Origin: Eledone cirrhosa
Lineage: Eukaryota
Reading direction: 5' to 3'
Length of the DNA: 64,000 bases
Assembly (NCBI GenBank): GCA_964016885.1
Contig: OZ024760.1
Location: 29,016,001-29,080,000, forward strand
Positions 12,955 to 59,992 of the stretch are shown one piece after another. The notes under the pieces are model-generated. The model made no database searches. It had not been told where the DNA came from and saw nothing but the letters and a program-made list of their open reading frames with translations. Position numbers and translations under genes: made by a program. Numbering within the stretch: position 1 is the first letter of the stretch; each line of letters opens with the position of its first letter.

Positions 12955-13574
12955 GATGCATTAGTATCCTAGATACATCTATGTATGCTATATCATTTCA
13001 TCATCATCATTTCATTTTACGTCCGCTTTTCCCTGCTTGCAAGGGTGGGACGGGAACTGATTCTGGCTTGATTTCTACAGCTGGATGCCCTTCCTAACAC
13101 CAACCTCATTTACAGTGAGTGCTGGGTGCTTTTTTGCCGTAGCACCTCCACGACCACTTTGCAGTGGAATGATATGGACCCCAGTCCCTATCATCTCATT
13201 TCTACAGCTGAGTAAACTGGAGCAATGTGAAATAAAGTGTCTTGCTCAAGGAAACAACACATCACCCGGTCTGAGAATTGAACTCACAACCTTTCAATTG
13301 CAAGGCCAATGCTCTAACCACTAAGCCATGTGCCTCCTTATATAAAATATAAAACAGCGCACATGGCATCTTAGCGAGTCTCACAAATCCACACCACTAA
13401 AAATAGCACCCAGGTTTACTCGACATTTGAAATAGCTCAATAAATTAACGGAGCCGAATATATTAAAGGTATATATTGAGTTAGGAACTCAAAATAGTCT
13501 CTTTCACCTTAGTGAAGCAGGTCCCTTACGATTTGAACACATATATCTATATATCTGTGTTTGTTTTTTCTTTT

Positions 13575-13949: not shown

Positions 13950-14330
13950 TCAAAAGTTTACCCTAAAATGGGAGAAATTAGCTAAAACCCAAAGCTTTTC
14001 CAGGAGCCAAAATTTCTGCAAATTGTGTAATCTTGAGATTTATTACATAATCACACACAAGAAGAAACTGCTGAATAACAGAATTGAACGAACATTATTC
14101 TGCCGTCACAGAACTAAAACCCTTTTTTCCCACTACAAGCCGAATATTACATAAAAGAGGGACATCCCCCAACTATATAAACCTTAATCTAGTTAGAAAA
14201 ATATAAAAACAATCTCTTCTCAACATATATTAATAACCTTAAATTACCACACTAATAATGGAAAGATATGCTGATGAGAATAGGTGTAAATATGCGATAA
14301 TGAATGTGTCTAAAAACGTCCATAAGTATG
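13950..14330 (+). mobile_element. Penelope-like element 3' remnant (endonuclease C-terminus + degenerate HHR)
   Basis: LKWEKL...[12 protein letters not shown]...LLNNRIE...CRH resembles the CxLCLxEK...LLNKRxE...CRH end of PLE GIY-YIG domains. Followed at 14267-14324 by tatg-CTGATGA...aaaacGTC-cata. Confidence 0.7.
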
Positions 14331-18298: not shown

Positions 18299-18773
18299 TA
18301 TATATATAAATGTATATATACATATATATATATGTAGGTGAAGACACATGGCTTAGTGGTTAAAGCATTGGCCTTGCAATCCAAAGGTTGTGAGTTCAAT
18401 TCTCGGACTGGGTGATGTGCTGTTTCCTTGAGCAAGACACTTTATTTCACATTGCTCCAATTTACTCAGCTGTAGAAATGAGATGATAGGGACTGGGGTC
18501 CCTATCATTCCACTGTAAAGTGGTCGTGGAGGTGCCACGGCAAAAAAGCACCCAGCACTAACTGTAAATGAGGTGTTAGGAAGGGCATCCAGCTGTAGAA
18601 AACAAGCCAGAATCAGTTCCTGTATGAGCAAGACAAGATCAGCTGACTGGACACTGCCCACAACAGGACAACCCGTCTAACCCATGTTAGCGTGGAAGAA
18701 CGGACGTAAAACGGTGATGATTATGATATGTATATATATATATATATACACACACACACATATATACACACAC

Positions 18774-18845
<72 letters not shown>

Positions 18846-18850
<5 letters not shown>

Positions 18851-19067
18851 AACCAGTAAGACCCCGACGGCTGAGCTCAAGCCGTTTCGACGGCTAATTC
18901 TGCAGAATTCGCCATCAAAACGGCAGAATTCGGCAGAATTAGCTGTCGAAACGGCTTGAGCTCAGCCGTCGGGGTCTTACTGGTTCCTATTACCCACTCT
19001 ACTACCCTAAGTATTGAGTACTTTGGTGCGTTATAGTCCACCTGGTTCCTTACCACATTTCCTTCGT

Positions 19068-19068
<1 letters not shown>
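18846..19068 (+). mobile_element. Fold-back element carrying the 3' half of a hammerhead (family also at 51838-52020 and 59545-59730)
   Basis: Inverted repeat 18846-18990 containing GAAA-cggc tgagctca-type loop gccg-TC-ggggtc, then a shared ~80-nt tail. Confidence 0.75.
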
Positions 19069-19122
<54 letters not shown>

Positions 19123-52864: not shown

Positions 52865-55800
52865 AGTAGACGTCTTGCACATCGGCTCTTCGATTTGGAA
52901 TTTTTACTTGGATTATTTGTGAGTGTATTATTTAAATTGTTTTTTATTATTGACTCTAACCCCTAGTCTGGGACTGTAGACGTAGGGTAAAAATATTTAA
53001 TTCAAAAATGTTTATCGATATCGTTGAAAACGAGGAAGCCATATTGGAAGCTAACGCCATGCCTACCAAAAAAAACGAGAAAGAGGGAACAACAATTCAA
53101 ACTGTTGAACAGCCCCTCCTCTCGAATGAAAAAAAGAATATTAATTCGAATGAAAACGTAAATTTTGAAAAAGATAACAAGAAAATTAACACCGCAAAAG
53201 ATGAAACCAACAACATTACAACAACAAGCAACAAAGACAACAAAATTTCTTTTGCCCAAACGGTCAGGAAAGCTATAGAGTACAAGCCAATAGACATCAC
53301 AAACGCTAAGCAGAACTTGCTAAATGCCAGAAAATACATATCTTTTGGGGAGGATGGTTCTTTTACGATCAACTCTCCAGAAGAAGTTCGCCAACAGGTA
53401 TATAGGAATACCATAACCTTCAGAACGATATCCAACACAACAAGAAAGCCAGCTCAATTGACAGAAAGTCAAATTGAGCTGGTATTGAAAGACATTAAAT
53501 ACTTTTTATTGAAAGAGGAAAGCTGTATGCCAGCATTATGGTCCGAATGAAGGACGAAATGCTGGCTCAAAAATGCTCGGTGGCACCTATAGTGTCACCA
53601 CAATACACCTTCTTCCCCACGTATAAAGGAAGAAGAACTCAGAGACTAAGAATGTGGAGCCCAACGCCAGAAGTTAACATCTGGTCCGTCCTGACAGGAT
53701 TTACGGACCTAGAAAAGGACATCCTTATTTCAGCAGGGGAGTCCACCAGTGGACTGTTCGGGGGGAAAAGTCTGGAGGTTCTCTTACAGATGACACCTGA
53801 GAGAATCGCCGGAATACCCGACCGAGTCCTACTGGATGGGCGAACCTTCATAAATATTACGGGGGAAGGCAGGAGACCCTCATGTTACCACTGCGCTGGC
53901 AGAGGTAACCTGAGGACGGCCTGCCCTCTACTAACAACAAAAAAAACCACTGCTACAAACACAACAACAACAAAAACAACCAGCACCACCACCACAAAAA
54001 CAACAAAATACACTACCATCACCACCACAACGACAACAAAAACCAACAACATCACCTCCACCACCACCACCACCACAACATCAACAACAGCTCAAGAAAA
54101 CAACCCAAAACACGGTCCCACCCAGCCCCTCCCCACAGAACACAAATACAAAAACACACCCAGTTCATACACAACCCGGAGATATACCCCTCCCCTCCAA
54201 TACGGAAGAGGAGCTCATATCGTCGGAAGACGAGGGGGCTCCCTTCCAAAAAGTGAAAAGAAAAAAACGTACACACACCACACAAACAAAAATAACCCCA
54301 CCTGACAACACAACACAGACAACAAAACGCAAACTCACTCAAGAACAACAAGCAAAAACAAACACAACAACACAAAAACTCTACACATACATAAACAAAA
54401 ACAATAAAAACCTAACAGAAAAAATAGAAAACAACCCTTCGGTACAAACCGAAGGGCCGAATTTTGTAACGGCAATGGGACTCCCTAACCTGAAAATGGT
54501 GAAAGTCCCACTTGACATTTTCAAAACTTTGAAAAACATTTACCCTGAGGACGTGGGGCCACCCTGCACCAGGCCACTCAACCGCGTCCTCCTGAAAGGT
54601 TTTCCCCTCCTCAAACACCCACACAACTCCAAACACCCCAACCCCTCCACACACTAATACCCCCACACCACCACAAACCACCACCCCACCCATCAACCCC
54701 TCCACCAGCCCCATGGAAACTGAGCGGCCTGAACCCCAGGACGCAGAGAGGTAAGTGCCTCTTTCTTTGCCACCAACATGGCTGTGTTAAGAGTAGGTTG
54801 TCTAAATGCGCGTGGCCTGGGCTCACCTTGGAAGCAAGCTAAACTTCTAAGTGACCTCAGGTCACAATGTATAAATGTGATGGTTATTTGCGAGGCCCGG
54901 ATCAGCAGCATGCGACAGCTAGCCCCCACCTTTGATGACTTTGAGATGCACGCATCTCTCTGTCAGCCCGGAGGTGGGGGTGGGGTTGTCGTTCTGCTGC
55001 AAAAACATCTGGGTCTCGCTACACAGACGGTACACTTGGACCCGGAGGGTCGACTCGTAGTTCTGGACCTTGGCAATGGTGAAGGCAAAGCTTTTAGGCT
55101 TGTCGCCGTATACGCCCCTTTTGGGGCAATGCGGTTGGACTTCTTCCATCGTCTGGAGACTTTTCTAGGCACGTCCCGCTCCTTGCTTTTAGTGGGGGAC
55201 TGGAATGGTATCCTAGATGCACGTTGGGACTATGTAGGGGCATGTCCCGATAGAGGGGGGGTGTAACAGCCTTAAGGGGTTAATCGGCCGATTTGACCTG
55301 GCCGATAGATACCGACTAGATTTTCCGACTGTGCCAACCTGGACTTGGTCAAATAACAGTGGTCAATCTAGATCGTACCTAGATAGGTTCTTAGTTAGAA
55401 TTAAGGATCGGGACTTTTTAAGTTGTCCAGAAATGCTCATGGTGGGCTATTCAGACCACAAGTTAGGGACCTGCGTAGTCCACCTTGATAGAACGCATAG
55501 GCAGGGACCCGGTTACTGGAAGCTCAACTTGTCCTTACCGGCAAGTAGAGCTTACAGGGACCGGATTAGAACCTTAGTTAAGGAGCGGTTGACGGGCGCC
55601 ATCGTCAACAGCAGGTGGTGGGGCTCTCTAAAAAGAGAGATTAGAGTAGTTTCAATAGGAGTTAGTAAGGAGTTAGCCTCTGATAGAAATAGGAAGGAAA
55701 GGGAGTTGGTAGTTAATGTTGAAGAGGTAATGAGAAGCGGCAACGTGGCCAGAGTGCAAGCGTCGAGAACGGCCTTGAACCAGTTCTTCGACGCGAAACA

Positions 55801-58445
55801 CGAAGGCTGCGTTGTTCGAAGCAAAATACATGCTCTGGGAAACGAGGGGACCAAAGCTGTTAGCTGGGCCCACGTGACAGAAGCGAAAAGTGGGATTAAA
55901 TCCACTATCCGGTCTTTGCGAGACCAGGATGGACGGGTGATCCTTGAACCTAAGCAAATGTGCGAGGCCTTTCAAAGGCACTTTGCCCAATTGTTCGGGA
56001 GGTGCAGGGGGCCGGTTGGAGATGTGGATTTCGGTCCATACCTCGACGGCCTGCCGCGTCTTTCGGACAAGGAGGCGAGGTCCTGCGACAGGCCGATCTC
56101 AGCTGCTGAAATAGGGGACGTGCTGAGCCTATGCGGCAAACGCAAATCTCCAGGGTTCGATGGTCTGCTCTACGAACTATATATTAATATGCCAGACTTG
56201 TTCCCCGATCTCCTCGAGGCGGTCTACTGCAACTGGCAACAGAACGGGAGAATTCCCTGTTCTGTGACCAAGGGCGTAGTCTCGCTAGTGAGGAAGGACG
56301 AGGACAAGGGGGATGACATTAGTAATTTTAGGCCCATAACTCTGCTAAATGCAGAGTTAAAGATTTTGGCCAAGGTGTTAGCGAAGAGGTTGGCGCTTGT
56401 CGTGGGGCCTGGTGGGAGATGCGCAGACATGCGCTATCCCGTCCAGGTCCATCCACGACAACCTCCACCTCATGCGATACATCATAGAGAGGGTTGGGAA
56501 CGAACCCGGCTTTGGTGGGGCCCTGATAAATTTAGATCAGTCGAAAGCGTTCGATAGGGTGGACCATGGTTACCTGGATGCGGTGCTAGCGGCGGCTGGG
56601 TTCGAACCCGTTTTCAGGGGCTGGATCACTGCCATGCACAGCAGCCGCATCTGCTCTAGAGTTAAGGTGAACGGCTACCTATCGGAGCCGTTCGAAATCA
56701 CCCGCTCCATCCGACAGGGATGCCCTCTCTCCTCCCTTCTGTATGTATTGGCTCTCGAGCCACTACTGCGGAAGTTGGAGTTGTTGCAGGGCATCCCTTT
56801 AGAACCGGGATTGCGCAAAGCGGTGTCGGCCTATGCCGATGACGTAACAGTAATGGTGTCGACCACCTCGGAAATCGAGGCAATCGGCACCTTACTGGAG
56901 GAGTACGAAAGGTTGACAGGGGCTAAGCTGAACCGGGACAAGTCAGTCGCTTTGCAACTCGGCGAGTGGAGGGGCAAAGCGATGTCGTGCGACGGTATCG
57001 TCAGACAGTGGACGGAGGGCCCGGTGAAGTTGCTTGGGGTCTGGTTCGGACCGGACCTCCAGGTGGAGAAAAACTGGGGTGAGGTGACGAATAGGGTGTT
57101 TGCACTGACCCAGAAGTGGGCCTGGGTGCAAACTATCCCTGAAAGGTTGGGCGGAGGTGGCGAACGCTTACATAGCGTCCGTCATCTATTACCGCTTGAC
57201 TGTCGTGCCTTGCCCGGGTGAGATCCTCGCCAAAATGGAATGGGCCCTCTTTTATTTCCTTTGGAAGAAGAGGTCTCCTCTGGTGAGGAGATCCATCTGC
57301 TGTCAACACCCTTTGAAAGGAGGGCTGGGGATGCCGTGGCTAAAAATGCGTTAACACGCATTGAGGCTAAGGCACATCCAGGTATTCCTCACCGGTCAAC
57401 CGGTGTGGGCCCCGTTTGTGAGGCGAGCCTTGCCGAGGCTCGTCTCGCTCACCGAGCTGCAGTCCTGGGTGAAGCAAAGACCGAGAAAACTGGGCGCCTG
57501 GCACACCGAGTGTGCCCAGGCGCTCACGGCTCTCTGGCAGGCGGACCCGGCTATCGACGGAGACTCCACCTCATCATTCTATAGAGGGCTGGTGGTTAGC
57601 AGGTGCGACGACGCCCTCGGAGAAACCCTAGGCATGGAGGAGGACGAACTGGCCAGTCTATTCGGTAGGACTTTTGGCCCGGGACCTATGGACAACTTCC
57701 AGAAGTCCTTGGCCTGGCAGTGCTACCGAGGGGCTCTGCCCGTTCGGGATAAGCTCTACAGACACGGGCGCCCGGGTAGGGACCCCTCGAAAAAGATCTG
57801 TCCCAGATGCATGCGCGACGAGGAAACGTCGCACATGCATTGGTGCACTGCCCGGGCGTTGCCGATCTGTGGGGCTATGTCGAACAACTACTGTCACGAG
57901 TGGGACCAATCAGGTTGACCACCAAGTCCATTGTAACGATCAAACCGCCTCCGCCCTTCAAAAATGAAGGAGAGGCAGTCTTCCTCTGTGTAATAGCCAT
58001 GGTAAAAGAGGCTATATGGTGGACGCGTCTGAAAGGGCTGAGTTTGGACACCTTTCTTTCTGGCCAACAACTGGTCCTTTTCTTCCGATACCATTTCGGA
58101 AGAAGGATCAGGATGGAGAGAGGTACTCCACCCCAGCCAGTTTTATGAAAGGTGGGTGAAAGTTGCGAGAATGGCCCGTGTGAATGGGCCTTCTCTTTAT
58201 ATCAGCCTGTAGGTGGAAAAGGATGAAGGAAGAAGGAAGCACCCTCTCTTTGTGCTCCCGTGGAGAAGGGTCGCACATTTTTTCGGGGGTGTGTGTGACC
58301 CCAAAACGATCCCTCCCTATTGAGGACCTTCTTGTTACTATTTTGTTTGTTATATTTTTCTTACTCGATTTTTATGTAAACTCCCCCCACCCATGTACAT
58401 GTCCCTTTCTTTTGTGCCCTAGTGGCAAATAAACAGAAATTTGTC
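52865..58445 (+). mobile_element. Near full-length Tx1/L1-clade LINE, frameshifted
   Basis: ORF1 53008-54657 (zinc-knuckle remnant CYHC...GNLRTAC, Thr-rich linker). ORF2 54778-58212: CLNARGL, AVYAP, GDWN, SYLDRF, SDH, GYWKLN, KSPGFDGL, FRPITLLN, LDQSKAFDRV, RQGCPLS, YADD, KLLGVWF, CPRC..EET..H..C. Several stops and frameshifts. Confidence 0.96.
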
Positions 58446-59405: not shown

Positions 59406-59992
59406 AGGAGGTGAGTTTTTGAAATGCGCATAATAAAACACATGGAACTCTTTTAACCATATTTTGATCTTATATTATATATATATATATATATATATCT
59501 ATGTATATATATATATATATATATCTATGTATATATATATATATATAGGAAAATATTTGACCCCGACGGCAGAGCTCAAGCCGTTTTGACGGCTATTTCA
59601 GAAATAGCCGTCGAAACGGCTTGAGCTCTGCCGTCGGGGTCAAACATTTTCCTATTACCCACTCTACTACCCTAAGTATTGAGTACTCTGGTGCGTTATG
59701 GTCAATCTGGTTCCTTACCACACCACCTTCATTATATATATATATATGAAAAGTGTAATTTACTACACAAAATGAAGGTTATAGAGAAAATTGAGGTTGG
59801 TAATGGCACATGGAATATATAAGAGACAGAATACTTTTTTGTGAAAAAACATATAATTTTATAAGGTAAGGAAATAATAAAGTGTATATATATATATAAC
59901 TGTTGTGTTACCACTTCTATCAAACTCGTCCCATGGACTGAGTGCTCTACCACTACGGATATTACCTTCCAGTGTTCTACCACTATATATAT

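What the first reader, a model, noticed from the sequence alone, without database searches (positions are those of the whole stretch)
18846..19068. Three copies fold back exactly at hammerhead helix II, replacing the 5' half of the ribozyme
Seen: at 18846-18990, 51950-51999 and 59545-59655 the palindrome centre lies just 5' of gctgtc/gccgtc-GAAA-helix III-GTC-ggggtc. The CTGANGA strand is absent and replaced by the mirror of the 3' half. Loops and arm lengths differ among the copies and all share an ~80-nt tail on one side only. Inference: nascent cDNA snaps back on the helix II hairpin and self-primes, so the ribozyme structure itself sets the inversion point. This would be a concrete mechanism for inverted pLTR ends.
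Basis: partly seen in the sequence, partly recalled or inferred. Interest (0 to 1): 0.8.

Follow-up and report, generated by a model that had tools for sequence, protein, structure and literature searches.

The report
Penelope stubs mark an RNA start
These three DNA hairpins are short, two-armed insertions of a very common Penelope-like jumping gene; the arms end at one spot inside the loop of its ribozyme, likely because that is where the element's RNA begins and not because the copy folds back on the ribozyme, which would let the genome be read as a record of how this poorly understood class of element copies itself.

Summary
The palindromes are real. They are ends of a 3,531-bp Penelope-like element whose 717-aa ORF carries the Hydra-clade motifs; 30,254 exact tail matches lie in this genome. 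Its hammerhead 5' half exists (6,843 matches) but reads TTGANAA (U3-A8), not CTGANGA.

Snap-back on helix II fails: 0 of 102 short palindromes keep the loop, and the tail-less arm reaches further about as often as the tail arm (17 vs 15 short; 14 vs 17 long). Arms start at two fixed sites 79 nt apart. Of 70 tail arms that reach loop II, 58 stop in 16 nt around an initiator-like YYAGT. Where they stop on its A, the extra base is G in 15 of 18, as expected from a cap.

Best reading (0.6): two cDNAs, one from each strand of a cut (TA)n, run off a capped RNA 5' end and are end-joined. Only 1 of 26 multi-unit arms stops there, so long copies likely use another template, perhaps circular RNA.

The layout is known, and the scan saw it before on other DNA; the start-site reading was not found in print or in the scan's notes. 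No RNA data were available.

The parts
18846..18902 (-). Copy 1, tail-less inverted arm (unit positions 3452 to 3396); outer end runs into (TA)n
   Evidence: blastn to a natural full unit, 98% over 57 nt
18903..18933 (.). Copy 1, 31-nt junction insert with repeats of the arm end; not loop II of the element
18934..18990 (+). Copy 1, sense arm: end of loop II, helix II 3' strand (18940-18947), GAAA, helix III with palindromic loop, predicted cleavage after C18970, helix I 3' strand
18991..19069 (+). Copy 1, 79-nt tail between the two fixed arm starts (unit 3453-3531), followed by (TA)n
51835..51972 (-). Copy 2 (older subfamily), tail-bearing arm; limits approximate
51973..52000 (+). Copy 2, remnant of the tail-less arm, beginning at the A of AGT (inferred start-site equivalent); downstream part replaced by unrelated sequence
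59545..59599 (-). Copy 3, tail-less inverted arm (unit 3452 to 3398)
59599..59734 (+). Copy 3, sense arm plus tail (unit 3396-3531); one-base overlap at the centre

Best explanation
These are short insertions of a Hydra-type Penelope-like element whose two arms start at two fixed sites 79 nt apart and mostly end in hammerhead loop II; the arms are likely two separate cDNAs, primed from the two cut strands of a (TA)n target, that likely ran off the capped 5' end of an RNA starting in that loop and were likely joined head to head by end-joining. Shown: the element, its ribozyme anatomy, the two fixed outer ends, the pile-up of inner ends, the extra G, and that both arms come from one source element. 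Inferred: two-strand priming (by analogy with the in vitro Poseidon result), that the pile-up is a transcription start (A3392 of YYAGT, perhaps also A3388 of TCATTT), that the G is copied from the cap, and that one RNA, or two RNAs of one locus, serves both cDNAs. On this reading the 5' half of the ribozyme is missing because the template RNA never contained it.
For: Full unit and ORF. Outer ends: all 32 long two-armed insertions mapped have one arm ending at 3531 and one at 3452; the tail-less arm is longer in 14, the tail arm in 17, equal in 1 (tallied by hand). In 6 of these (L191, L192, L198, L210, L221, L240) neither arm contains the other. Short copies: tail-less further 17, tail arm further 15, equal 12, overlapping 38, of 82. 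Pile-up: of the first 100 tail matches on C1, 58 tail arms end at 3385-3400, 12 pass 3381 and 30 end earlier (with three reassigned by eye). Extra base at 3392: G in 15 of 18 unambiguous arms, p = 0.004 against A. Genome-wide, [ACG]G-AGTCC 2,883 vs [ACG][AC]-AGTCC 1,675. At control position 3395, G is 15 of the first 100 of 2,080 (by eye). The older subfamily, with a different loop, also piles up at AGT/GT in most of 30 loci (read by eye). Central spacer is 2 nt or less in 42 of 102, too short for a priming hairpin. Some copies carry the G on both arms (L083, L105, L125). Literature: both target strands are extended and the tail lies between two RT start sites (PMC11167929); an extra 5' G marks capped templates in L1 (PMC11702581); TATA/Inr motifs are noted in pLTRs (PMC3846280) and a start site was mapped in the pLTR region (PMC2377424).
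Against: No RNA 5'-end data, so the start site is unobserved. Ends spread over 16 nt, and only 8 of 74 anchored tail arms in the unbiased set end exactly at 3392. Half of the first 100 G hits are GG, where the G may come from the other arm. In my own small sample G was also common at 3395-3397 (8 of 14). G is not prominent in the older subfamily. Both arms share one haplotype in 52 of 54 short copies (26% expected if independent) and come from one source in the 32 long ones; long arms pair only with long arms (0 of 32 partners end at 3385-3400). A fold-back explains all of this with no extra assumption. Three long insertions are symmetric to within 20 nt (L208, L209, L222; chosen for paired hits). 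L104 has the tail on both arms. The extra T in 21 of 21 arms ending at TTT 3389 is unexplained. The predicted fold puts a small stem in loop II at the stop zone.
Confidence: 0.6

Rival explanations
1. One cDNA runs to the RNA 5' end or a break, self-primes on a chance microhomology, copies itself back, and is cut by the endonuclease at the tail-less site; later lopsided deletions at the palindrome centre scramble which arm is longer.
For: Arms share one source; long pairs with long and short with short; many centres sit on self-complementary words such as GTAC, AATT, TCGA; three near-symmetric long palindromes. Self-priming was proposed in PMC3846280 and endonuclease resolution of the tail in PMC8557442.
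Against: It needs deletions of hundreds to thousands of bases in 14 of 32 long, mostly young insertions. Spacers are 0-2 nt in 42 of 102. In L069, L082 and L121 the tail-less arm reaches the stop site while the tail arm is little more than the tail. Both strands are extended from two start sites in vitro (PMC11167929).
Confidence: 0.17
2. Two cDNAs as in the best reading, but they stop in loop II because of RNA structure or bound protein, not because the RNA begins there.
For: The predicted fold shows an apical stem in loop II whose 3' strand covers the stop zone; ends are spread over 16 nt; no RNA evidence for a start.
Against: G is enriched at one base. The stop position holds in a subfamily with a different loop. 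The same structure is passed in 25 of 26 second-unit encounters. Helix III and the helix II 3' strand are passed first.
Confidence: 0.13
3. One reading: the cDNA snaps back on the helix II hairpin itself and self-primes, so the ribozyme fold sets the inversion point.
For: Centres cluster within about 17 nt of helix II; the complete ribozyme exists in long copies.
Against: 0 of 102 palindromes keep the middle of loop II. The mirror arm continues as the complement of loop II's 3' end, not as helix II's 5' strand. Arm asymmetry runs both ways, and long insertions invert anywhere in the unit.
Confidence: 0.04
4. The palindrome is a non-autonomous unit (MITE- or SINE-like) copied whole.
For: Very high copy number and fixed outer ends.
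Against: Centres mostly differ from copy to copy, the ends are asymmetric, and the same ends bound ORF-bearing insertions up to 16 kb.
Confidence: 0.03

Closest known systems
Hydra clade of C-terminal EN+ Penelope-like elements (Craig et al. 2021, PMC8557442)
   Same: Single ORF with RT then GIY-YIG; DKT, CxCx5C linker, CxxC and CxH around the last conserved residues; (TA)n target; partial tandems with an inverted 5'-truncated copy and a one-sided tail; hammerhead in the pLTR.
   Different: Unit 3.5 kb (paper: generally under 3 kb); RWR for RWK; tail 79 nt (paper: 30-40); core U3-A8 with a ~35-nt loop II; most copies are ~200-bp stubs ending at one site.
Poseidon element of Anolis, PAc (Frangieh et al. 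2024, PMC11167929)
   Same: Two fixed RT start sites bracket the tail; both target strands are cut and extended in vitro; the uncleaved ribozyme region is copied; AT-rich targets.
   Different: Other clade. In the parts I read, that study does not connect two-strand extension to inverted insertions or map where cDNAs end.
PLE hammerheads, including the U3-A8 Cercyon variant (Cervera and de la Pena 2014, PMC4209133)
   Same: Type I fold, U3-A8 core, long helix II, palindromic loop III, paired motifs on opposite strands, circular RNA proposed as template.
   Different: Here helix III is a full 5-6 bp stem, and most copies break inside loop II at an initiator-like word.
Adineta Penelope inverted pLTRs (Arkhipova et al. 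2013, PMC3846280)
   Same: Head-to-head palindromes at the inversion, optional tail, TATA/Inr-like motifs in the pLTR.
   Different: Interpreted there as self-priming on an antisense template; arm asymmetry and the extra G here point to two cDNAs from a sense, capped RNA.
L1 twin priming and cap-derived 5' G (passages of PMC11702581)
   Same: Second target strand primes a second cDNA; extra G at full-length 5' ends.
   Different: L1 inversions carry non-overlapping parts of the RNA and have TSDs; here both arms copy the same stretch from fixed sites.

Membership tests
EN+ Penelope-like element | One ORF with RT and C-terminal GIY-YIG endonuclease | tested here: met
   717-aa ORF with DIESY, YRDD and YIG motifs in that order. 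Motif reading only: Pfam and PDB searches gave no hit.
EN+ Penelope-like element | Tandem or partial-tandem units (pLTR), inverted 5'-truncated copy, tail on one side | tested here: met
   Four full tandem 3,531-bp units plus an inverted arm; 32 of 32 mapped two-armed insertions have one tail
Hydra clade | DKT, CxCx5C linker, CxxC and CxH flanking E and N | tested here: met
   DKT 117, CNCPDRSIC 572, CNLCSEE 670, CKH 698 (criteria)
Hydra clade | RWK motif; no CCHH in the endonuclease | tested here: inconclusive
   RWR at 37 rather than RWK; CCHH absence judged only by eye, no alignment to Hydra proteins
Hydra clade | Insertion into (TA)n | tested here: met
   98 of 100 tails followed by a TA run
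Hydra clade | Placement in the Hydra branch of an RT tree | not tested
   No reference Hydra proteins fetched
Type I hammerhead ribozyme | Three helices around the conserved core with a 3-8 pair | tested here: met
   Fold gives the three-helix form (though z = -0.3); 91% of cells paired and 3 helix II pairs with two-sided changes in 13 related sequences; N7 takes all four bases. Rfam gave no hit. 25 of 100 listed copies have C3 with A8.
Type I hammerhead ribozyme | Self-cleavage after GUC | not testable with these tools
   Needs an in vitro assay
MITE | Fixed symmetric terminal inverted repeats, fixed interior, TSD | tested here: not met
   Asymmetric ends, variable centres; TSDs cannot be read in (TA)n

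The most novel reading that the evidence does not exclude
The element starts its transcript inside its own hammerhead, so the capped linear RNA cannot cut its 5' end in cis and carries the priming signal only 60-140 nt from the cap. Reverse transcription of that RNA gives tens of thousands of dead twin 'strong-stop' stubs, while full-length and multi-unit insertions come from a second template with no end at that site: a unit-length circle, possibly made by a split ribozyme whose 5' half comes from the far end of the same RNA. The 58 of 70 against 1 of 26 contrast would be genomic evidence for two template types and a job for the PLE hammerhead. Against: read-through transcripts of long arrays could also serve; a C3-A8 variant spread too; PAc inserted without ribozyme activity in vitro.
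Probability: 0.3. Interest if true: 0.75.

Novelty: new variant of a known kind. Interest (0 to 1): 0.5.

Why it matters
How Penelope-like elements make their inverted and tandem ends, what RNA they copy, and what their hammerhead is for are stated as open in the papers read (PMC8557442, PMC11167929, PMC3846280). This family offers tens of thousands of insertion records, young copies over 99% alike with open ORFs, and base-level predictions: a capped start at unit position 3388-3392, two primers per insertion, and a different template for long copies. The layout itself is ordinary.

Tried and rejected
Rfam: only low-complexity miRNA-type hits and a tRNA-like hit among the 150 of 415 rows shown for the window; no hammerhead hit on the full motif. 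Pfam and PDB sequence searches of the ORF were blank.

Sequencing runs: no RNA holder listed. Laying four contig sets showed the end region far deeper than the ORF but cannot show starts.

A DNA search with copy 2's tail returned nothing, which is uninformative. A genome-wide count of short palindromes was not obtained.

Splice acceptor at TTTAG as the stop: rejected, because arms keep the AG and no constant upstream exon appears. A second pile-up at the cleavage site 3433: a few arms end at 3432-3434, but overlaps make them unclear; not claimed. The C/T arm difference at 3406 (13 cases) mostly comes from my T-bearing query; rejected as evidence. L132 and L115 as two-RNA products: L132's sense arm is itself a mosaic; not claimed. 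A TATA box at about -28: present in the young subfamily only; not claimed.

One row of alignment A1 had wrong coordinates and was redone. over-extended some arms and was superseded. Five duplicate loci were dropped before counts; 17 of 102 pairs with indels or over 8 differences were dropped.

Full report
Observation. The window is AT-rich animal DNA full of microsatellites, from a 3.0-Gb assembly. The palindromes at 18846-18990 and 59545-59655 are real and far beyond chance. The third copy (51835-52000, minus strand) has only a short mirror arm. All three share a tail on one side and sit in (TA)n. That the host is an octopus is recalled and appears in earlier scan notes; I did not test it.

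What it belongs to. A 25-nt tail pattern has 30,254 exact matches and 0 for the reversed control. Some copies run on upstream without inverting. Following them gave an endonuclease frame, and through it a tandem array of 3,531-bp units, each with a 717-aa ORF. The protein has DKT, CxCx5C, CxxC and CxH and an RWR motif, the marks given for the Hydra clade of Penelope-like elements. Pfam and PDB gave no hit and no tree was built, so clade membership rests on motifs and target choice. Coordinates below are positions in that unit, with the tail end at 3531.

The ribozyme. Long copies carry the missing half: helix I 5' strand, TTGANAA, G10.1 and helix II 5' strand (6,843 matches; N takes all four bases). 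This is the U3-A8 variant reported for Schistosoma Cercyon elements. The fold gives the three-helix form. In 13 related sequences 91% of cells pair and three helix II pairs change on both sides; relatedness inflates such counts. Rfam missed it. 25 of the first 100 listed have C3 with A8, which by recalled hammerhead chemistry should impair cleavage. Landmarks: core 3349, helix II 3356-3364 and 3402-3409, cleavage after 3432, arm starts 3452 and 3531.

Outer ends. I mapped long insertions picked from 150 protein hits by frame length or pairing, plus two extended earlier loci; this is not a random sample. All 32 with two complete arms have one arm ending at 3531 and the other at 3452. The tail-less arm is the longer in 14, the tail arm in 17, and they are equal in 1. 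In six, neither arm contains the other. A few loci showed one arm only or complex joins (L212, L223, L225, L228, L235, L237, L242), and L104 has a tail on both arms. This matches the in vitro finding that a Poseidon protein cuts and extends both target strands and starts at two RNA sites that bracket the tail.

Inner ends. Among the first 100 tail matches on contig C1, 58 tail arms end at 3385-3400, 12 pass 3381, and 30 end earlier. These come, with L091 and L113 added and L161 moved. So the clustering is real, but it lies in the 3' part of loop II. Of 102 distinct short palindromes from all samples, none keeps the middle of the loop and 42 have a centre of 2 nt or less. In 82 from tail-based samples the tail-less arm reaches further in 17, the tail arm in 15, 12 are equal and 38 overlap. 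Junctions show blunt joins, 1-4 nt overlaps, or inserts repeating nearby sequence, as in copy 1. The helix II snap-back is therefore not supported.

Why there. The commonest single end among tail arms in the pooled sets is the A at 3392 of TTAGT or TCAGT, an initiator-like word (consensus recalled). Where the next base can be assigned to neither arm it is G in 15 of 18 (p = 0.004), while long copies have T or C there. Genome-wide, G before that A occurs 2,883 times against 1,675 for A and C together, with a preceding T excluded. Half of the first 100 G rows are GG and ambiguous; dropping them leaves about 1,440 against about 640 for A. At control position 3395, G is 15 of the first 100. These splits were counted by eye from the listings. 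An extra G marks capped templates in L1. The older subfamily of copy 2 has a different loop yet piles up at the same AGT, with little sign of G. Arms ending at the TTT just upstream carry an extra T in 21 of 21; a second start at A3388 with slippage is one guess.

Against my reading. Arms share a haplotype in 52 of 54 short copies and a source in the 32 long ones, and long arms never pair with an arm stopped at 3385-3400. Two primers then need one RNA copied twice, or two RNAs of one locus. A fold-back at the RNA end followed by deletions explains these points directly and was proposed in print for an antisense template. G was also frequent at 3395-3397 in my small sample (8 of 14). No RNA run was listed, so the start site is inferred.

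Two templates. Of 28 arms that cross a unit boundary, 26 reach position 3400 of the next unit upstream and 1 stops at 3385-3400 (L232, at 3393), against 58 of 70 at first encounter (Fisher p about 5e-13; the long set is selected). A structural block should act at every unit, and so should linear RNA starting at each pLTR. Long copies thus likely come from RNA without an end there: a circle, as proposed in PMC4209133, or read-through transcripts. The C3-A8 copies and the PAc mutants weigh against a need for cleavage.

What is known. The layout of inverted truncated copy, one-sided tail and (TA)n is described. Earlier agents of this scan reached the Penelope reading on other DNA, and two noted that the arms may be copied separately (seen after my reading was recorded). 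Searches showed no paper tying PLE inversion points to a capped start inside the hammerhead, and one search showed no such note. The library lacks most subscription journals.

Papers as seen: PMC11167929, parts 1-2 of 4; PMC4209133, parts 1-2 of 4; PMC8557442, passages and section 11; PMC3846280, passages and Discussion; PMC2377424, PMC11702581 and PMC13282606, passages; bioRxiv 10.64898/2026.07.22.740005, part 1 of 5. No supplements were opened; those of PMC8557442 and PMC11167929 may bear on family identity and on 5' ends.

Verdict.

Noticed in passing
G000, listing (e.g. L101, L150, L187): A subfamily with C3 opposite A8 in the hammerhead core makes up 25 of the first 100 listed copies, so it spread despite a mismatched 3-8 pair.
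   Followed up: partly
unit position 3389 (e.g. L031, L041, L045, L167): Short arms ending at the TTT before AGT carry at least one extra T in 21 of 21 cases; long copies seen have three T. Unexplained.
   Followed up: partly
L203/L204 (G000:C1:437198000-437214500): 16-kb insertion of four full units at 99.9-100% identity with open 717-aa ORFs; the tail is on the short inverted arm.
   Followed up: yes
L017, L033, L038, L047, L218, L228, L229: Copies of different subfamilies sit side by side in one TA tract, as if each insertion leaves a target for the next.
   Followed up: no
unit 3419-3426, loop III: Self-complementary GAGCTC loop kept in young and old subfamilies; could pair two RNAs of one locus.
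   Followed up: no
window 55238-57218 (+): Two overlapping long frames with endonuclease-like and RT-like motifs (recalled as L1/Tx1 type), in a GC-rich stretch.
   Followed up: no
window 13957-14142: Weak tblastn match (27%, E 1e-4) to the endonuclease end of this element; probably a relic of a distant Penelope family.
   Followed up: no
window 18347-18410 (+): tRNA-like Rfam hit (37.7 bits) just upstream of a repeat that recurs several times in the window; likely a tRNA-derived SINE head.
   Followed up: no
window 28741-29073: Head-to-head (ACC)n/(GGT)n microsatellite hairpin around a short unique spacer.
   Followed up: no
window 243-568 with 13012-13337; 38180-38502 with 52054-52376: Pairs of ~325-nt dispersed repeats in opposite orientation, 96-98% alike.
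   Followed up: no
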